The notes beneath the pieces were generated by a model that was not told the origin of the DNA, made no database searches, and saw nothing but the letters and a program-made list of their open reading frames with translations. From assembly GCF_002854065.1 (NCBI RefSeq), contig NZ_CP024147.1: 64,000 nt of DNA. One strand, given 5' to 3'. Positions 42,789-51,738 of the stretch are shown here, piece after piece (the first letter of the stretch is position 1; each line of letters starts with the position of its first letter). The stretch comes from Escherichia coli. Lineage in GTDB: Bacteria; Pseudomonadota; Gammaproteobacteria; Enterobacterales; Enterobacteriaceae. A program made the translations under genes and the position numbers.

Positions 42789-43218
42789 TTTAATTTTGAC
42801 ACCTGAATCAAGTCCATAAGTCGAAAATCCCGCATTAAACTGTTCCCCAATGATTAATACAGCTTTATACGCGTAATGAGGCTATTGGCGTTGGTGATGA
42901 GTGTAACTGTCCATTCCTCGCTCAGAGCAACCTTCTGCTCCAAGAGTCAGTCTACAGTGTGCAAAAAACAGACGTTGATCACAATATCGAGTTAATCATT
43001 CGGCCGTTTATCACTCCCATTGAAAAATTTCTCAGTATCCAATATACCAATGTTGAGGGCTTCCCTCTTACATCTCAAAAGGATAACTATCATGGGTCTT
43101 AAACCTGGTCCAAAACCAATTGCTAAATCGACAGGAAAACCAGATCAACGCCGACGAGATAATAAAGATACTCCTGGCAACACTCCGGGACTAAAGCCAA
43201 GTAAGTCCACCGGGAAGT

Positions 43219-43254
43219 AAAAAAATCAGGGTATAAATAAGTTATTTATACCCT
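43219..43254 (-). terminator. Intrinsic terminator of the three-gene helicase cassette
   Basis: Perfect 12-bp stem AGGGTATAAATA / TATTTATACCCT with 3-nt loop, followed on the minus strand by a 7-T run; 16 bp after the helicase stop. Confidence 0.75.
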
Positions 43255-43269
43255 GACTACATATCCAGT

Positions 43270-45468
43270 CTACTGAAGGTGTTTCTGCAGCCAGGTGCAC
43301 GTTCCTTCTATATCATACGCCTGTGCCCCATACCCTTTAGCAAGCAAAGTCTCTGGTAAATACTCGTCATATTTATCCAGATACTTGTCAGGAACAACTG
43401 CAGCAAGCTCAAACTCTGAAGGTAACCCCGACAATAGCATTTTCTTAAGTACACGCTGGACAGAGGCAACGCCTGAGTCCTCTACCTCTATCACACCTGC
43501 AAATGAACTGGCTTTAAAGCCACAACGTATAAGCAGGGACGTAATTGTATTGACAATTTTATCCCCCATCCACGGGATCACGTAGCAGTTCTGACCACTG
43601 GCAATAAAACAGTCATTGTGTAGATTGTAGCGTTGGAAGTTGTCACTTCCTTCCGCAAAGAGGCTTCTGGCTGCGGCATCAGCATAATCGACTCTCTTGT
43701 TGCCTACCGCGATACGGTAATCATTTTCCCTGTAGATAGCGAGCATCTCCTGGCGAACAACATCATGAACAGACATCCCGCTACCACTGAATAGTGGTGG
43801 CTGACCGCCTTTAGTCGCCTCAACATAGATAACCTTTTTTTCAACCTCGATCTCTGTCACTTTCCAGCGCCGTCCGCCGAAGATGATGTGCTGCTCCGGC
43901 AAAAGTGGGGAGTCTACAGGCACTGTGCCAAGAGTTCGGTTTCCCGTTACAATGCGAAACTCCTCAGGTGTATTGAATACGGCATAAAACGTGTAGTGAT
44001 TAGTCAGCTTCTCCCCCTCAGCCCCGACAACTATTTCACCGCTGGCTAGTTGACTGAGCAGGCCACATGTCCCCATATGTTTAAGCAGACTTTTAAAGTC
44101 ATTTATATCCACATTCCGGAACGGACCTGTCTGGCAAAGTTGTGACCAGAGTTGATCGGCACGAACACCTCCCCATTGCGCAGTAATAGCCAGGATCTGG
44201 TGTAGTAGTGTGGAGTAATGTTTCTGCCGGATATCTGCAGGCTCGAACCAGCGCTTAGAGATCATCAACCTGATCATTGCCATCGCCTGAACCAACTGCA
44301 GCCGTAAATGATCCACAATGCTGCTGGTTGCGGTAAGTTCAGGTTCAGTAATTAACATTCTCAGCACCGATGGGGAATCGCGCCGCCCTGAACGTCCCAT
44401 GCGTTGACGCAGACTGGAAACAGAATGCGGAGGTGTCACTTGTATGACAGACTGCACCTTACCAATATCAATACCCAGCTCCAGCGTCATTGTACAAACA
44501 GCGGTTGTGGGCAAATTCCCTTTCTGCAGTCGGGCTTCAAGCGCCTCACGTAACTCCCTGGCAAGGGAGCCATGATGAGGAAAGAATTCATTAGGAACGA
44601 CATTTGCTTCACACATGTCGCTCAGTATTGCCGCTATGCTTTCAGTACGCTTTCGACTGTTAGCAAAGACCAGGTGGGAATCGCCACGACAGAGCCTGAA
44701 AATATCCGCGCAGACGAGCTGTTCAGCAGAGCTCTGGAGCTCTTCCCCTTTTTCGAGCACCCGCTCAAGATAACCTTTAACCTGAACTTGTAGTGTAGCG
44801 GTGCTATTACTGTCTGTTACCGTTTCACAAGGTAATCTCTTATCCGGACGCAATAATTCTGGCACTTTTTCCAGCTCTCCCAGAGTGGCACTCAACGCGA
44901 CACGGGGAACTGGATTTAACTGGCGTCCCAGCACATGGTCAATTCTATTAAGCAGCGAAAGCAGTTGTATACCACGCTCTGAGCCAATAAAAGCGTGGAA
45001 CTCATCAATAACAATGTATGCCACTGAAGAAAACGCCTGTTTGAGCCAACCCAATGAGTTTATGAGCAAAGACTCAAGTGATTCAGGTGTGATAAGTAAG
45101 ATACCTGACGGGCTTGTCCGTGCTTTATTCTTTTTGCTTTGTGGTACATCCCCGTGCCAGGGCGTCACTTGCATTTCCAGGGCTTCCCCCAGGCTCTCAA
45201 GACGACGGTGCTGATCGTTAATCAATGCCTTCAACGGACTGATATAGATAATGCCAAATCCACCAGTGAGATCTGCAATCGCTGAACAGGCAGGAAGAAA
45301 GAAAGCCTCTGTTTTACCCGCAGCTGTACCTGCACTAATTAGTACATCACGATCACGGGCTAAAATTGCCGGAATAGAGCTCTCCTGCAAGGGCCTTAAT
45401 GATGACCAGCCCTGCTTATAAATCCACTTACGGACACGGGGATCGAGACTATTGTAGGCACTGCTCAT
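43270..45468 (-). CDS. Superfamily-2 DExH-box helicase with C-terminal extension; third gene of Shango-like cassette (SngC-like)
   Basis: 732 aa; Q-motif LRPLQ, motif I SAGTAAGKTEAF, motif Ia SPLKAL, motif II VIDEFHAF, motif III SAT, motif VI QRMGRSGRR; start overlaps the upstream stop by 4 bp. Confidence 0.85.
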   Translation of the reverse strand: MSSAYNSLDPRVRKWIYKQGWSSLRPLQESSIPAILARDRDVLISAGTAAGKTEAFFLPACSAIADLTGGFGIIYISPLKALINDQHRRLESLGEALEMQVTPWHGDVPQSKKNKARTSPSGILLITPESLESLLINSLGWLKQAFSSVAYIVIDEFHAFIGSERGIQLLSLLNRIDHVLGRQLNPVPRVALSATLGELEKVPELLRPDKRLPCETVTDSNSTATLQVQVKGYLERVLEKGEELQSSAEQLVCADIFRLCRGDSHLVFANSRKRTESIAAILSDMCEANVVPNEFFPHHGSLARELREALEARLQKGNLPTTAVCTMTLELGIDIGKVQSVIQVTPPHSVSSLRQRMGRSGRRDSPSVLRMLITEPELTATSSIVDHLRLQLVQAMAMIRLMISKRWFEPADIRQKHYSTLLHQILAITAQWGGVRADQLWSQLCQTGPFRNVDINDFKSLLKHMGTCGLLSQLASGEIVVGAEGEKLTNHYTFYAVFNTPEEFRIVTGNRTLGTVPVDSPLLPEQHIIFGGRRWKVTEIEVEKKVIYVEATKGGQPPLFSGSGMSVHDVVRQEMLAIYRENDYRIAVGNKRVDYADAAARSLFAEGSDNFQRYNLHNDCFIASGQNCYVIPWMGDKIVNTITSLLIRCGFKASSFAGVIEVEDSGVASVQRVLKKMLLSGLPSEFELAAVVPDKYLDKYDEYLPETLLAKGYGAQAYDIEGTCTWLQKHLQ

Positions 45469-46781
45469 AGTCTGAAATTCGCCAGGCCATCATCGTCATC
45501 ACTTTCCTCCACAATGGCATCCCCCATATCGCTGGGCTTGTCTTCTTCAATCGCCACCCCCTCAATGAGAGCTTGCCAGTTCATCGTACTGTTTTGTTCC
45601 AGCACAGCCAGCATATCCAGAAAACCTTTTATGGTATTGCGGGGAGTTCGAAAGTAAGCATCTCCGATGGTTTTGCTGCAGTGATGCAGAAACCCGGTCA
45701 GAGCCTCATCTGGCACCAGATAATTTGCGGGATCTCCACCAGCATAAACATGACGAAGATTTTTCAGTAAAATATACAGTTCCTCAGGAGTGAGGCTGGC
45801 AAGATGTAGCGTGGGAGACGAGTAGTCAATCACGCCAGCTTTCTGTGCGAATCGATTTTCTGCCAGACGCGACTGGAGCGCTTCATAGCTGTAGAGCCCC
45901 TTACGTGGATCGAAAAGAAACTCTGGCGTCCCCCCGAGGATAAAACCAATATTTTCGGCGGAGCCTTGCAGGCAGTCATTCAGGATCCGCAAAATTTGTT
46001 CGTAGTTGGCCGTTCTCGCTTGCGTATTATTCAACTTGAAGAGGTTCACCATCTCGTCGAGGCTAACTAAAAGTCCGGCATAGCCTGCCTGACGGACAAA
46101 AAGGCTCATCAACTTCAAAGAGTCATAGAACGAGGCGTCTGAGATAATCGTTCGGACGTCAAGATCATTACGGGCATCAGTTTTTGTGGTGTACTCGCCC
46201 CGCAACCAGCGAATAGCATTGGATTTTAAGGTTTCGTTATCCTGCTCATGCCCGCGCCAGAATGCGTCAATGACCTTCGCAAAGTCATATCCACCCACCA
46301 TATCTGACAAAGCAGCAAGGCGTTTATGAATAACGGATGAGACCTGGGAGCCGTTCGCATCAGCTTCCTTCCTTGCCTCAGTAACAAACCTTTCCACAAC
46401 GCTAAGTAATGCATTGCCATCTGGTTTGTTTCTGGTGGACATATTTTTCATAAGCTCTGAGTAGAGATTACGAGCCTGACCTCCCGATGAGTGAATACGT
46501 CTGTCGGGAGAAAGGTCTGCACTGACCGTGACCAGCTTTTTCTCTAACGCAATAGACCGTACAACACTTAAAAAGAACGTTTTGCCGGAACCATACTCAC
46601 CAATGATAAGTCTGAAGCTTGCCCCGCCATCAGCAATCCGTTCAATATCCTGATGGAGGGCGGTTATCTCATTCACGCGGCCAACCTGGATATGCTGAAT
46701 ACCTATCCTTGGCGTTACTCCCGACTTAAGTGACTGAATAATAGCGTCGCGCTCTTTCACTCTTATACGTGTTACAGACAT
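45465..46781 (-). CDS. P-loop ATPase; second gene of Shango-like cassette (SngB-like)
   Basis: 438 aa; Walker A GEYGSGKTFFL, Walker B LLVSLDEM; start 3 bp after the upstream stop. Confidence 0.85.
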   Translation of the reverse strand: MSVTRIRVKERDAIIQSLKSGVTPRIGIQHIQVGRVNEITALHQDIERIADGGASFRLIIGEYGSGKTFFLSVVRSIALEKKLVTVSADLSPDRRIHSSGGQARNLYSELMKNMSTRNKPDGNALLSVVERFVTEARKEADANGSQVSSVIHKRLAALSDMVGGYDFAKVIDAFWRGHEQDNETLKSNAIRWLRGEYTTKTDARNDLDVRTIISDASFYDSLKLMSLFVRQAGYAGLLVSLDEMVNLFKLNNTQARTANYEQILRILNDCLQGSAENIGFILGGTPEFLFDPRKGLYSYEALQSRLAENRFAQKAGVIDYSSPTLHLASLTPEELYILLKNLRHVYAGGDPANYLVPDEALTGFLHHCSKTIGDAYFRTPRNTIKGFLDMLAVLEQNSTMNWQALIEGVAIEEDKPSDMGDAIVEESDDDDGLANFRL

Positions 46782-46784
46782 TCA

Positions 46785-49094
46785 CTAACCCTCTAATTCT
46801 TTGGCTATTTCCAGGTCAACCCAAATGTGATCATCAGCATCTTCCAGCACTGGTGCATCAACCACCGCATAGGACCAATCGTTAATCACCTCAAGCGCAC
46901 CGCCGAGCATCAGGTTCCAGTTACTACACAACTCTGTCGCCTCTTTTCTGGACCATTGTTCTTTCTCCAGCAACCTGCGATAAAGTTGGCTATGAGCGGA
47001 GTCAAGCCCCCCTTCCCCGGTTAATGAGGCTGGAGCGCTTTCTGGTTGTTCTGGTTCTTCTTCAGTGAAAATCGAGTTCAGTAATTTACGAACATCATCA
47101 GTGGCAGATTCGTGGCGGGCAAGTACATTGGCATCCAGCGTAAACCCTGCCGTCGACTGATTAGCTGGTACAGATGAAACGAGAGCAGTTTCAGTTACGG
47201 AATGCTGATGGATATTGCTTGATACGGATGAGGGATCCAACCCCAGGCTTGTATAAATCTTCTCAAGCTGTTTGATTTCGGCAGGCGTAATTCTGCCGTC
47301 AGAGCAAGCGACACTAACGATAACCTTACCCACAGCTGATTTTTCCGCTGCACCGAGTAACTCAATCCGGCTTTTCATTCCCGTCATATTCGCCGGGGTA
47401 TGAAGCTGCCACGTTAAATATGCGTGCAGAGAGCGCTTTTCATCATCGCTGAAGCTGACATTGTTGTTGATGGCATTCTCAAGCACTTTCTGTTCGGCTT
47501 GATCGAAAGAATTGTCAATCAAGGCGACTACCGAACCTAATCGGAGCGTCAATACAGCTGTGATAAATTCAGGAGAAGGAGAGAAGCGGCCACTTTCACC
47601 AGCAGGGAATAAAACAAGAACACCATCGACATCTGCTTTTACGTGGTGGTAATAGGGGTCAGGAGCCAGGCAGTACCCCATTTTCTGTGCAAAGGCCTGC
47701 ATCAAGTCGGCCTCTTTTTTGTTGATCTTTGCCGGACAGGTAGCATTCATGTGTGACCAGAAGTCAGCAACTGAAACTACTCCCCCCTTACTGAGGATCG
47801 CGTCATCAGCCCAGCGTTTGAATGCACTTAATATTTTATCTGCGCTTTCGTTAACGATTTCTGAAGGCAGCAACAAAATTGCAACGGTATCATTTGCTGA
47901 AGTGCCTTTTCTACCAAGGTAACGACTGTAAGCATCCAGTTCATCTGTGCATATATCAGCAAGAGTCATAAGCTTCTGAACAGGGCCTTTCAATGCACTT
48001 GGATCAGGCAAGTCAGGAACAGGAAGCCGAATACCTCTCAAACTGGGACTTGCAGGCGTGTAATCTAAACGCAGACGCGCTTTATTCGGCTTCACTACCA
48101 TCCCTTCACCGTATTTAAGGGTGTAACGCCGTTTAAATAGTGCAGCAAATTCTTTCGCACAGCGGCGGGCGGGGGTTCGTAATGAGTATTCAGTATGGTT
48201 TGTCACCCACGTCAGAGCCAGATCCGCTGGAACCGGGGCTCCTGCATCAACTGTCTTTGCCAGGATTAACCTGAACTGCATGCTATTGCTGAACTCTGAA
48301 TCATCGCTGAGAGCTGCTGCAAGATTTTCGTTCGGACGAAGAATGGACATCGCTTCAAGTAACTGGGACGAGTAGTTCCGGAATGATCTGTTTTCATTGA
48401 AAACAGATCTGAGACGGCAGATCTCTTTGAAAAGAGAATAGAACTCATCGTCAGATATATTGCTGTCCCTGCTGTCAACAAGCGCCCGTCTTTCCAGACC
48501 ATACAGATAAATAAAAACGTAACCAATTGGGCAAGAAGTGTCACATCTGTCGCTGGTAAGCCAACTCAGGTACGCGCCACGTGCTTCAGGTGAAAGTGAG
48601 GAATAACTGGGCCAATACCCTAATGAACTATCTTCGTAGATGTAAGATGTGGGGTATATCTTGAGCGTGTCGTCAATTAGCGATGCCTCGCTACTATCAT
48701 CATAATAACCGCCTGAGTTATGCCCGACAGGGTTCATTCGCTGTCCAAGATAGAAGTAGCCGCCGGTAATCTCTACCCCACCGACTGTGATCACCTCCCC
48801 CGGTAAAATCCAGCGAGCCAAAGCACCGGTAGTTTTTGAGAAATTCTGGCGTTGAGTGGCTGTTATACTGTATTCGGCATTCCGCCCGCCACTTAGTGTA
48901 AACGTAGCCAGATTGTCATCTTCGCTGTCCTCGTTGTGCATTACAGACTGATTTTTTTTGTTATTAGCAAGCCATTCTTTAGGTGGTGCTTTCACAGGAG
49001 CGGAAGTATAAGAGCCCGCGGACTTAGTTTTCTTCTTTTTGAAAAAAAGAATATAAATCAAATAAATCGCTACTATAAATATCCATAACTCCAT
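46785..49094 (-). CDS. Membrane-anchored TerB-N/TerB-C-type protein; first gene of Shango-like cassette (SngA-like)
   Basis: 769 aa; N-terminal TM helix MELWIFIVAIYLIYILFF then basic linker KKKKTK; size, position and architecture match the TerB-domain component of the TerB-ATPase-helicase triad (assignment by recognition, not by HMM). Confidence 0.7.
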   Translation of the reverse strand: MELWIFIVAIYLIYILFFKKKKTKSAGSYTSAPVKAPPKEWLANNKKNQSVMHNEDSEDDNLATFTLSGGRNAEYSITATQRQNFSKTTGALARWILPGEVITVGGVEITGGYFYLGQRMNPVGHNSGGYYDDSSEASLIDDTLKIYPTSYIYEDSSLGYWPSYSSLSPEARGAYLSWLTSDRCDTSCPIGYVFIYLYGLERRALVDSRDSNISDDEFYSLFKEICRLRSVFNENRSFRNYSSQLLEAMSILRPNENLAAALSDDSEFSNSMQFRLILAKTVDAGAPVPADLALTWVTNHTEYSLRTPARRCAKEFAALFKRRYTLKYGEGMVVKPNKARLRLDYTPASPSLRGIRLPVPDLPDPSALKGPVQKLMTLADICTDELDAYSRYLGRKGTSANDTVAILLLPSEIVNESADKILSAFKRWADDAILSKGGVVSVADFWSHMNATCPAKINKKEADLMQAFAQKMGYCLAPDPYYHHVKADVDGVLVLFPAGESGRFSPSPEFITAVLTLRLGSVVALIDNSFDQAEQKVLENAINNNVSFSDDEKRSLHAYLTWQLHTPANMTGMKSRIELLGAAEKSAVGKVIVSVACSDGRITPAEIKQLEKIYTSLGLDPSSVSSNIHQHSVTETALVSSVPANQSTAGFTLDANVLARHESATDDVRKLLNSIFTEEEPEQPESAPASLTGEGGLDSAHSQLYRRLLEKEQWSRKEATELCSNWNLMLGGALEVINDWSYAVVDAPVLEDADDHIWVDLEIAKELEG

Positions 49095-49166
49095 GAGGCA
49101 ATAACCTTAAAAATAGCTTTTCACGAACACCGAAAGGATGACGATGGGAAGTGGATTAATCTTAAA

Positions 49167-49194
49167 ATAATACTTCTAAATTACAAAGGTTAAA
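49167..49194 (-). promoter_or_regulatory. Putative sigma70 promoter for the three-gene cassette
   Basis: Minus-strand TTTAAC (-35) - 16 nt - TATTAT (-10), about 75 bp upstream of the first start codon. Confidence 0.25.
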
Positions 49195-49561
49195 AGCAAA
49201 TCACAACCTTCCCGAACCTCCGCTTTTCGCTTGCTACGGTCCCTGCCGAGCATGAATCTCGTCTATGCCCAAAAGCGGACATTGATAATTCAGAAACCAT
49301 GGCAGAAGTGTGGTATCAGCCCCTCACCTGATGCCTGCCAGCATCGCACCTCGCTTCATGTCTAACCTCTCTGTTAGCCCGGCAGGGTCAATGGCTCTGT
49401 TGACAATGGTGCTACTTTCCAATACGTTAAGCACAAGGTTAGCGCGACCCGGCAGCTCACGGCCAAAGCGGAATGCAGCGCAGACTTATCAAATCTTTTT
49501 TGGTTAAGTGTCTTTGATTCTTATGATTCGTGAGCACATAGGACAGATAAGAGACTTAAAC

Positions 49562-50135
49562 CATGAAACAAATCCCCACATGCGCTGAAGCAAAAGCCCA
49601 CGCCAAATACCTTTCACGGTCGCTCAATATCAATCTAAGCTACGCCCGGGATGCAGTGGCATTACGTTATAACTACCATAACTGGTCGGAACTCAGCACA
49701 GTATTTGGTCAGCTTAGCTGATAAGTACATGTCGTGCTATGGCCTTGCCAGTCATGAAGAGAAGCGTGTTTTTAGCCAGCTTCTGGCACCATATATCGCA
49801 GAATTGCAAAATGTCATTCATCCTGACCGCCATGTACGGAAAGCTTGATACGTAAGATTGCTGAAGGCCATATTTCCCGGGTATCTGGTAAAGTGATGTC
49901 GGCTGTAATACGTGAATGCGAGGATTTTCCTCCCACGACAGTTAAAGACATCATTGAACTGCTTGAATTTTATGATGAAACGGCCAGCCGGATATTAGCA
50001 GGACACCACCGGCAGATCCCGACCAATAATCCCTTGCTGAAACCCTGGGTATTTGGTGTGCGCTTTTATGCCTATAACCACTTTAATGCCAAGCTGGTCA
50101 CCATCTGTGATCTTCCGCCAACATGCCTCTTCTGA
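49562..50135 (+). pseudogene. Gene of unknown function broken into three consecutive frames (53+65+96 aa)
   Basis: ORFs 49562..49723, 49651..49848, 49845..50135 succeed each other in frames 2, 1, 0 with short overlaps, suggesting two frameshifts in a ~190-codon gene. Confidence 0.3.
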
Positions 50136-50248
50136 ACTCTCCCGACGTCAACAAAACCCCCTCTAATCCCTTATATATCAGGATTTCTTTGTATCCAGAG
50201 GCCAACCGCCTTCACCCCGTATCAAGTTACTTTTGGGGGTATAATTTA

Positions 50249-50689
<441 letters not shown>

Positions 50690-50785
50690 CATGCATCACA
50701 ACAGCTCCTCATAGGCACTCAGTGGTCGATGTTCCACCTGACTGATCTGCTGCCAGAGCGGGGCGTGAGGTTCCGGTACTATCTG

Positions 50786-51082
50786 CTAGCCAGACGACAC
50801 TGAGCAGAGGCGATGTGAGGCCACCAGTTTCTCATTACTGTAGATCCGCAACTCATCGTTCAGCGATATTCGTATCGAGACTGGCTGACCACACAGCATT
50901 TCGGGAACGCTGTACTGATTACCTCCAACTTCGTTATAGCGGGTCCCAGGACACATGGCGGATGTCGAAGTAACTGGTATCGAAGTCTGTATCCGGTAAC
51001 GGCTGCAGATGTTCCTGCTCCAGCGCGAAGCGCTGTTCCGGCGTTTCTTTGAACTGACGAAGCTCCCATTTGTCAGCCACAT
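50786..51082 (-). pseudogene. Transposase C-terminal remnant (possibly IS21 IstA-like; family uncertain)
   Basis: 98-aa ORF ...YSVPEMLCGQPVSIRISLNDELRIYSNEKLVASHRL resembles transposase C-terminal domains; no N-terminal catalytic region. Confidence 0.35.
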
Positions 51083-51234
51083 CGGCTAGCGCCAGCTAAC
51101 CTATGCGGTACTGGCCTTGGTGCTAACCCGCGTTAAAGCTACCACGTTGATCAGAGCCTCTCTCCCGGAAAGTCATACTGTCTTACATATTAATCACTCA
51201 AAATAGAGTAAATAAAATCGGTAATGACTCCAAC

Positions 51235-51738
51235 TTATTGATAGTGTTTTATGTTCAGATAATGCCCGATGACTTTGTCATGCAGCTCCACCGATTTTGA
51301 GAACGACAGCGACTTCCGTCCCAGCCGTGCCAGGTGCTGCCTCAGATTCAGGTTATGCCGCTCAATTCGCTGCGTATATCGCTTGCTGATTACGTGCAGC
51401 TTTCCCTTCAGGCGGGATTCATACAGCGGCCAGCCATCCGTCATCCATATCACCACGTCAAAGGGTGACAGCAGGCTCATAAGACGCCCCAGCGTCGCCA
51501 TAGTGCGTTCACCGAATACGTGCGCAACAACCGTCTTCCGGAGACTGTCATACGCGTAAAACAGCCAGCGCTGGCGCGATTTAGCCCCGACATAGCCCCA
51601 CTGTTCGTCCATTTCCGCGCAGACGATGACGTCACTGCCCGGCTGTATGCGCGAGGTTACCGACTGCGGCCTGAGTTTTTTAAGTGACGTAAAATCGTGT
51701 TGAGGCCAACGCCCATAATGCGGGCAGTTGCCCGGCAT
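51235..51738 (-). CDS. insB: IS1 InsB transposase reading frame
   Basis: 167-aa [19 protein letters not shown]... (a few substitutions relative to copy 1). Confidence 0.9.

What the first reader, a model, noticed from the sequence alone, without database searches (positions are those of the whole stretch)
49562..50135. Frameshifted ~190-codon gene divergent from the Shango-like cassette
Three ORFs follow one another in three different frames with short overlaps (starting MKQIPTCAEAKAHAKYLS..., ...LADKYMSCYGLASHEEKRVF..., ...IRKIAEGHISRVSGKVMSAVIREC...). Two single-base indels would restore one gene. It sits between the cassette promoter region and the IS21 remnant and may be decayed cargo or a decayed regulator or partner of the neighbouring system.
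Basis: seen in the sequence. Interest (0 to 1): 0.3.

Follow-up and report, generated by a model that had tools for sequence, protein, structure and literature searches.

The report
Dead remnant of an uncharacterised two-gene module
This is a broken, cut-off copy of a 302-codon gene that, when intact, is paired with a GIY-YIG nuclease gene on mobile defence islands; the copy here is an ordinary pseudogene, but it points to a small two-gene module nobody seems to have characterised.

Summary
The frameshifted gene is real, but it was described incompletely. Intact homologues are 302 codons, not about 190. An example is E. coli 47-1826, WP_096002204.1. They are always followed by a translationally coupled GIY-YIG/T5orf172 nuclease gene.

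The window copy carries three lesions:
- an inserted T at 49719, which creates TGA-TAA in frame;
- a one-base deletion after 49836, which returns to the original frame, so ORF1 and ORF3 share a frame (two frames are used, not three);
- a break at 50105/50106 (codon 181), which removes the conserved C-terminal third and the whole nuclease gene.

The sequence joined at the break is the last 16 nt of tRNA-Sec (selC) plus about 190 nt of a selC-island end. An IS21 fragment follows.

All three lesions are shared by 159 of the 169 complete E. coli genomes that carry the gene, so they are not sequencing errors. Ten genomes keep the intact pair.

The gene is not a Shango partner. About 290 genomes carry Shango without it, and intact pairs also sit beside TIR/DUF3659 cargo.

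The family is small: 58 representatives among 1.84 billion. It matches nothing in Pfam, NCBIfam, PADLOC or PHROGs, and shows only a weak GNAT-like fold.

Verdict: an ordinary pseudogene, and a modest lead to an untested nuclease-linked module carried on mobile elements.

The parts
49172..49562 (+). Upstream (promoter/leader) region that travels with the gene, whatever the neighbouring cargo
   Evidence: Homology to strain 47-1826, where the neighbour is DUF3659/TIR rather than Shango, starts at window 49172 and runs to 50106 at 95% identity. Shango-only genomes lose homology at about 49232.
49563..49718 (+).
   Evidence: Translation MKQIPTCAEAKAHAKYLS...GQLS matches the intact 302-aa homologue.
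49719..49719 (+). Lesion 1: inserted T (AGC-T-GAT), giving TGA TAA in the original frame
   Evidence: Alignment with the intact gene. Not in a homopolymer run. Identical in 159 complete E. coli genomes.
49720..49836 (+).
49836..49837 (+). Lesion 2: one C missing between these bases (GTA-CGG against GTGCCGG), which returns reading to the original frame
   Evidence: Conceptual repair gives a continuous 181-codon match. Shared by the same 159 genomes.
49837..50105 (+).
   Evidence: Lineage-specific changes Y172N, G176A and Q178L lie just before the break.
50105..50120 (+). Lesion 3, the breakpoint: CTGTGATCTTCCGCCA, identical to the last 16 nt of tRNA-Sec (selC). C50105 and T50106 are shared with geneA (2-nt microhomology)
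   Evidence: Homology to all intact genes ends at 50106.
50121..50312 (+). Remnant of the end of a selC-associated island (the stretch that lies between selC and the island integrase or LEE in other strains). It supplies the false C-terminal tail and the stop codon (50133-50135) of ORF3
50313..50689 (+). 3' fragment of an IS21-family (IS100-like) istB gene and element end. It bounds the remnant on the right
   Evidence: 97% identity to IS100kyp istB of strain A33. Annotated 'ATP-binding protein, missing N-terminus' in RefSeq.
43270..49094 (-). Neighbouring intact Shango-type cassette (TerB-N 769 aa, ATPase 438 aa, DEAD/DEAH helicase 732 aa), divergent from the remnant. This is context, not a functional partner
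   Evidence: (Pfam TerB_N/TerB_C, BrxC_BrxD, DEAD/Helicase_C on the Salmonella orthologues).

Best explanation
Window 49563-50135 is a non-functional remnant of the first gene ('geneA', 302 codons when intact) of a two-gene operon. The second gene of that operon ('geneB', 268 codons) encodes a protein with a C-terminal GIY-YIG/T5orf172 nuclease domain.

Shown:
- In the window's lineage a recombination joined geneA at codon 181 to the core of a selC-type attachment site (the 3' end of tRNA-Sec plus the island flank). This removed the conserved C-terminal domain of geneA and all of geneB. An IS21 element later truncated the incoming sequence.
- Two single-base indels (+T at 49719, -C after 49836) also disrupt the remaining 5' part.
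- The allele with all three lesions is fixed in a lineage or spread block found in 159 of 5426 complete E. coli genomes.

Inferred:
- The order of the three lesions.
- Whether the break was made by an integrase at a secondary site or by illegitimate recombination at a 2-nt microhomology.

Inferred, with lower confidence, for the intact module: it is an autonomous conflict module carried by mobile elements, most likely anti-phage or anti-MGE defence. GeneB's nuclease would be the effector, and geneA (a helical N-terminal domain plus an alpha/beta C-terminal domain with a weak GNAT-like fold) its co-translated regulator or sensor. A distant geneA homologue pairs with an HD-domain protein instead, which fits a conserved adaptor with exchangeable effectors.
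For: - Intact homologue and exact lesions.
- Truncation point is the same in all 159 decayed copies, and 10 intact two-gene copies exist.
- Both indels are identical in 159 of 169 genomes, with no intermediates.
- The remainder of geneA and geneB is absent from the window.
- Ancestral Shango + intact pair at 95% identity over window 42960-50106.
- selC core and flank at the break.
- GeneA is a genuine family of about 300 aa with conserved C-terminal motifs that the window copy lacks.
- High-confidence fold (pLDDT 92).
- GeneB passes the Pfam cut-offs for MUG113 (35.2 against 22.3 bits) and T5orf172 (28.6 against 20).
- A-B pairing is kept down to 35-37% identity, with 4-nt overlaps. The homologue lists for A and B are parallel.
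- Defence-island or MGE neighbourhoods (TIR, type I RM, CBASS, T4SS).
- HD_4 partner swap.
Against: For the pseudogene reading there is essentially none. RefSeq annotates ORF1 and ORF3 as 'hypothetical proteins' rather than as a pseudogene, but that only reflects the lack of a named family.

For the functional guess about the intact module:
- No match to any PADLOC model at E<=1, and no experimental record was found.
- Some homologues stand alone without a nuclease partner.
- The family shows repeated independent decay (P0005, P0008, P0016), which could mean weak selection.
- The N-terminal half of geneB could not be modelled.
Confidence: 0.93

Rival explanations
1. It is a decayed regulator or accessory partner of the adjacent Shango-type system, so its loss would alter Shango function.
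Against: About 290 complete E. coli genomes carry the Shango cassette without geneA (homology ends about 49232). Intact geneA+geneB sits beside TIR/DUF3659 in 47-1826, Combat13F7 and 19A14, and beside CBASS or T4SS in other genera. The geneA module has its own upstream region starting at 49172. From established knowledge (Millman et al. 2022; preprint listed but not read here), Shango is described as a three-gene system.
Confidence: 0.03
2. The frameshifts are sequencing or assembly errors and the gene is intact in the organism.
For: Single-base indels are the commonest assembly error.
Against: Both indels are identical in 159 independently assembled complete genomes. The inserted T is not in a homopolymer. 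The copy is also 3'-truncated at a rearrangement junction shared by all 159.
Confidence: 0.01
3. The split gene is still functional, through programmed frameshifting or as separate short polypeptides. One possibility is that ORF3, the 96-aa product annotated in RefSeq, has a role.
For: The +1/-1 pair restores the frame. ORF1 and ORF3 are called as proteins by PGAP. A weak promoter-like match overlaps the start of ORF3.
Against: The insertion creates two consecutive stops (TGA TAA) in frame. Intact homologues are single ORFs with no frameshift site. The most conserved motifs lie beyond the break. The ORF3 tail is accidental foreign sequence and is itself variable or frameshifted in relatives (P0014, P0021). 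Promoter-like matches are barely above the shuffled expectation (5 against 2.6).
Confidence: 0.02
4. The intact module is a type II toxin-antitoxin or addiction pair (geneB nuclease as toxin, geneA as antitoxin) that stabilises the island, rather than a defence system. The window remnant is what is left after both were lost together.
For: It is a tightly coupled two-gene operon with a nuclease. It sits on islands, ICE-like elements and T4SS regions. In the window, geneB and the geneA C-terminus were removed by a single event, as expected if the toxin cannot be left unguarded. One relative sits next to an Xre_MbcA_ParS_C antitoxin-like gene.
Against: In Salmonella, geneA is frameshifted (211 + 91 aa) while geneB is intact, in several samples. 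That is hard to reconcile with geneA being an essential antitoxin. GeneA, at 302 aa, is larger than its supposed toxin domain and has no DNA-binding antitoxin signature in Pfam.
Confidence: 0.2

Closest known systems
GIY-YIG/T5orf172-containing anti-phage proteins (PD-Lambda-1, PD-T4-3, Uzume UzuA)
   Same: The partner gene of the intact module carries a C-terminal T5orf172/MUG113 GIY-YIG domain, the same domain class listed for PD-Lambda-1, PD-T4-3 and UzuA in the DefensePredictor supplement. The module also lies in defence islands.
   Different: Neither gene matches any PADLOC-DB v2 model at E<=1. The module has two genes, with an unrelated 302-aa first gene. Nothing of the nuclease gene remains in the window.
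Shango (SngABC: TerB-N protein, ATPase, DEAD/DEAH helicase)
   Same: Immediate divergent neighbour, co-inherited as a block in some E. coli and in Salmonella.
   Different: Not part of the system. Shango occurs about 290 times without it, and the gene occurs without Shango.
GNAT (GCN5-related N-acetyltransferase) fold, including GNAT toxins such as TacT
   Different: The matches are weak. No Acetyltransf Pfam hit appears at E<=1. The Q-x-x-G-x-G string (residues 222-227) lies after the long helix, not in the beta4-alpha3 loop where GNAT motif A sits. No evidence of acetyl-CoA binding.
tRNA-gene att sites of P4-type integrase islands at selC (LEE and related islands)
   Same: The breakpoint carries the last 16 nt of selC plus the island-side flank, at 82-88% identity to selC-island junctions.
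   Different: Here it lies inside an argW (tRNA-Arg CCT) island, with no tRNA-Sec body and no adjacent integrase. It is a relic, not an active att site.

Membership tests
Pseudogene derived from the 302-aa 'geneA' family | Significant homology to intact full-length members | tested here: met
   tblastn E 2.9e-77 over aa 1-181. 96% identity to P0001 after conceptual repair.
Pseudogene derived from the 302-aa 'geneA' family | Disabling lesions relative to intact members (frameshifts, truncation) | tested here: met
   +T at 49719, -C after 49836, break at codon 181 of 302. The missing part is not found elsewhere in the window.
Pseudogene derived from the 302-aa 'geneA' family | Lesions are real rather than assembly artefacts | tested here: met
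   Identical in 159 complete genomes. Read-level data for the source strain are not available.
Shango system component or partner | Consistent co-occurrence with SngABC | tested here: not met
GIY-YIG / T5orf172 nuclease (partner gene of the intact module) | Pfam domain above the gathering threshold | tested here: met
   MUG113 35.2 bits (cut-off 22.3) and T5orf172 28.6 bits (cut-off 20) on the 47-1826 partner. The C-terminal domain is modelled with pLDDT 82-91. The gene is absent from the window.
GIY-YIG / T5orf172 nuclease (partner gene of the intact module) | Nuclease activity | not testable with these tools
   Needs biochemistry.
Known anti-phage defence systems (PADLOC-DB v2.0.0) | Match of either protein to a system model | tested here: not met
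   0 families at E<=1 for both proteins.
GNAT acetyltransferase superfamily (geneA C-terminal domain) | Sequence-profile match to an Acetyltransf family | tested here: not met
   No such Pfam hit at E<=1 for the query, and none at E<=0.01 among 37 members.
GNAT acetyltransferase superfamily (geneA C-terminal domain) | GNAT fold and an acetyl-CoA pyrophosphate-binding loop (Q/R-x-x-G-x-G/A between beta4 and alpha3) | tested here: inconclusive
Type II toxin-antitoxin pair (intact module) | The antitoxin gene cannot be lost while the toxin gene stays intact | tested here: not met
   The Salmonella locus has a frameshifted geneA with an intact geneB in several samples. This is indirect evidence, and toxicity was not measured.
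Programmed ribosomal frameshift gene | Frameshift conserved among homologues, with no in-frame stop barrier | tested here: not met
   Homologues are single ORFs. TGA TAA lies at the shift site.
selC-type att/island-end relic | Identity to the 3' end of tRNA-Sec plus the adjoining island flank | tested here: met
   16/16 nt, then 82-88% identity over 135-200 nt to selC junctions. The 15-mer occurs once in the window, and 14 of 100 shuffles give a match at <=2 mismatches, so the flank carries the weight of the evidence.

The most novel reading that the evidence does not exclude
The intact parent of this remnant may be a previously undescribed two-gene anti-phage or anti-MGE system carried by integrative islands and conjugative elements of Enterobacterales and beyond. 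It consists of a 302-aa protein of a rare, unannotated family, co-translated with a protein carrying a GIY-YIG/T5orf172 nuclease domain. The first protein (helical N-domain plus a degenerate GNAT-like C-domain) would act as a sensor or adaptor that can be wired to different effectors: a GIY-YIG nuclease in most cases, an HD phosphohydrolase in one distant relative. The repeated independent inactivation of geneA (this window's lineage, the Salmonella copy, and the P0008 and P0016 alleles) would then reflect a fitness cost or autoimmunity.
Probability: 0.3. Interest if true: 0.45.

Novelty: new member of a known kind. Interest (0 to 1): 0.2.

Why it matters
For the window itself the point is mainly annotation hygiene. 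Two RefSeq 'hypothetical proteins' (WP_001361538.1, 52 aa; WP_123863910.1, 96 aa), present in about 3% of complete E. coli genomes, are fragments of one dead gene. The Shango cassette next to them stands alone.

The break at a selC-type att core inside an argW island is a small, concrete record of how defence islands are rebuilt from pieces of other tRNA-linked elements.

The wider value is the lead. The intact two-gene module is rare (10 of 5426 complete E. coli genomes; 58 family representatives in 1.84 billion proteins). It is consistently embedded among defence or conjugation genes, is absent from the defence-system model library searched (PADLOC-DB v2.0.0) and was not found in the papers searched, and has a confidently predicted fold with no close structural relative. 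It is a cheap candidate to clone and test.

Tried and rejected
- Chance ORFs: rejected by homology.
- Three-frame description: rejected by frame arithmetic and translations.
- Search for the missing 3' third of geneA and for geneB elsewhere in the window: nothing found.
- Family assignment of geneA: Pfam, NCBIfam, PHROGs, PADLOC and a PDB sequence profile gave no meaningful hit.
- GeneB structure: only the GIY-YIG domain was modelled confidently. The N-terminal 165 residues have pLDDT<60, so no fold search was attempted on it.
- Scan of genome contigs with the family alignment: the first alignment was too divergent. The second scan returned 23 pattern matches but no true relative, so partner statistics rest on 11 look-ups of individual homologues plus E. 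coli genomes.
- Plasmid and phage collections: no tblastn match.
- Literature: no paper holds the WP accessions. Searches on T5orf172/GIY-YIG defence and the DefensePredictor supplements show other GIY-YIG systems but not this pair.
- Integrase-mediated secondary-site recombination as the cause of the break: considered. Only 2 nt of certain microhomology and a loose GCAGGT resemblance exist left of the core, so this cannot be told apart from illegitimate recombination.

Full report
**1. What is in the sequence**

ORF listing and frame translations confirm three consecutive ORFs:
- 49563-49721 (52 aa);
- 49651-49848 (65 aa, of which only the part from DKYMS onward matters);
- 49845-50135 (96 aa).

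Contrary to the finding, they occupy two frames. ORF1 and ORF3 share a frame, and ORF2 is shifted by +1.

**2. Intact homologue and exact lesions**

A megablast of 49400-50300 against complete E. coli genomes gave 158 full-length matches at 99% identity or better. One 95.8% match stops at query position 707.

That match, in strain 47-1826, is an annotated 909-nt gene for a 302-aa hypothetical protein (WP_096002204.1). A GIY-YIG nuclease family gene follows it two bases downstream.

Pairwise alignment shows three differences in the window:
- an extra T at 49719 (AGC-T-GAT), which produces TGA TAA in frame;
- a missing C after 49836 (GTA-CGG against GTGCCGG), 117 nt later, which restores the original frame;
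- complete loss of similarity after 50106, which is codon 181 of 302.

Conceptual repair of the two indels gives an uninterrupted 181-codon match. It is 96% identical to the intact cluster representative P0001, and is followed by nine foreign codons and a stop. tblastn finds neither the remaining 121 codons nor the nuclease gene anywhere in the 64-kb window.

**3. The lesions are real and clonal**

A 181-nt query spanning both indels matches 169 complete genomes. Of these, 159 match at 99% or better (nearly all at 100%), and 10 match at 90-99%.

With the intact two-gene query, the same split appears: 10 genomes have the full pair and 159 stop at position 707. No intermediate allele was seen.

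The inserted T is not in a homopolymer run. Sequencing error is therefore excluded for practical purposes.

RefSeq annotates the fragments as separate hypothetical proteins, WP_001361538.1 and WP_123863910.1.

**4. What was joined at the break**

Window 50105-50120 is CTGTGATCTTCCGCCA, the last 16 nt of tRNA-Sec. The next 190 nt or so are 82-88% identical to the stretch that follows selC in strain B7A, where it lies before a tyrosine integrase gene, and in a LEE-positive strain. A 52-nt version of the same sequence lies between a P4-like element and ISEc8/LEE in O157 strains.

From 50313 an IS100-like istB 3' fragment follows.

The only tRNA gene in the window is tRNA-Arg(CCT) at 34593-34667, with an integrase gene beside it. 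The selC-type core is therefore a relic inside an argW island.

The crossover shares only CT with geneA. Integrase action at a secondary site and illegitimate recombination cannot be told apart.

**5. Ancestral arrangement and relation to Shango**

In 47-1826, Combat13F7 and 19A14 the intact pair lies next to DUF3659 and TIR-domain genes instead. There, homology to the window begins only at 49172.

Conversely, about 290 complete genomes carry the Shango cassette with homology ending near 49232, that is, without geneA. GeneA is therefore a separate module, not a Shango component. Shango itself is intact in the window.

**6. The family**

An exhaustive HMMER search of 1.84 billion representatives gave 58 hits. 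Most are full-length proteins of about 300 aa, down to about 20% identity. The word-indexed search gave 8 close clusters in Providencia, Pectobacterium, Salmonella and others.

The alignment shows the strongest conservation in the C-terminal half (YAYY.F.G..V.I..REWD; R.WF..YMIGYL; Q....GY.G), which the window copy lacks entirely or in part.

There is no Pfam, NCBIfam, PHROG, PADLOC or PDB-sequence match, and no homologue in 72,556 plasmids or 50,697 phage records.

**7. The partner**

GeneB has a C-terminal MUG113/T5orf172 (GIY-YIG clan) domain above Pfam thresholds. Its homologue list parallels that of geneA, on the same contigs.

The A-B pairing, with a gap of one or two bases in the E. coli copies and a 4-nt overlap in the two distant pairs (P0009, P0011), is kept in:
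- Pectobacterium, at 75% identity, beside a CBASS operon and a PLD-like gene;
- a metagenomic relative at 37% identity;
- one at 35% identity beside VirB/Trb T4SS genes.

Other relatives stand alone beside F-type tra genes, a restriction-modification system on a RepC plasmid, or AlpA/YfjJ island genes. One relative is followed by an HD_4 protein and an Xre_MbcA_ParS_C-like gene.

The N-terminal 165 residues of geneB could not be modelled.

**8. Mechanism**

For the window, there is none. It is a dead remnant, and its loss removed the nuclease effector in one step.

For the intact module, my best guess (about 0.3-0.5) is a mobile-element-borne conflict module, either defence or addiction, with geneB's nuclease as effector and geneA as co-translated regulator or sensor. 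The Salmonella allele (geneA broken, geneB intact) argues against geneA being an indispensable antitoxin.

No publication of this pair was found. Known GIY-YIG/T5orf172 defence proteins (PD-Lambda-1, PD-T4-3, UzuA) are not matched.

**9. Verdict**

The 'decayed cargo' reading is right and the 'Shango partner' reading is wrong. The feature itself is ordinary, so interest is low. The lead to an uncharacterised nuclease-linked two-gene module is modest but concrete.

Noticed in passing
window 50105-50312: The last 16 nt of tRNA-Sec (selC) plus about 190 nt of the flank that normally lies between selC and an island integrase or LEE. It sits in the middle of an island integrated at tRNA-Arg(CCT). 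It is a relic att or island end, showing that this island is assembled from pieces of elements with different tRNA targets.
   Followed up: partly
window 43270-49094 (- strand): The Shango-type cassette (769-, 438- and 732-aa ORFs) is intact. About 450 complete E. coli genomes carry it, and only 163 have the geneA junction beside it. Homology of the Shango-only genomes ends near 49232, and that of the geneA-only genomes starts at 49172, leaving about 60 nt common to both (a possible recombination joint).
   Followed up: partly
L026 6001-7716 (Salmonella enterica GCA_050504715.1): The same Shango/geneA/geneB block occurs in Salmonella, with an independent frameshift splitting geneA into 211 + 91 aa while the GIY-YIG gene stays intact. 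Other independently broken alleles exist (P0008, P0016), so geneA decays repeatedly.
   Followed up: partly
L009 136-2166 (metagenome ERZ23498527): A 30%-identical geneA homologue is followed, 17 nt downstream, by an HD_4 (RelA/SpoT-type HD) protein and then an Xre_MbcA_ParS_C-like gene, instead of a GIY-YIG nuclease. This is an apparent effector swap.
   Followed up: no
window 50313-51089 and 51235-51738: Scrambled IS debris to the right of the remnant: an IS100-like istB 3' fragment (+), an inverted IS21-family istA fragment annotated 'Mu transposase domain' in relatives (-), then an IS1 insB ORF (-). The closest genome examined (AMSCJX02) lacks the IS1 copy, so it is a recent insertion in the window's strain.
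   Followed up: no
L002 8335-9132, L006 14330-15127, L026 8171-8968: A conserved 265-aa gene on the opposite strand (Pfam UCP007319 in the Salmonella copy) always follows geneB in the intact loci of the E. coli strains examined (except Eco_23-2667) and of Salmonella. It is missing from the window. Whether it belongs to the module was not examined.
   Followed up: no
window 49563-49721 and 49845-50135: RefSeq/PGAP annotates the two fragments as independent hypothetical proteins (WP_001361538.1, WP_123863910.1) in many genomes rather than as one pseudogene. This is an annotation error propagated across about 159 complete genomes.
   Followed up: yes
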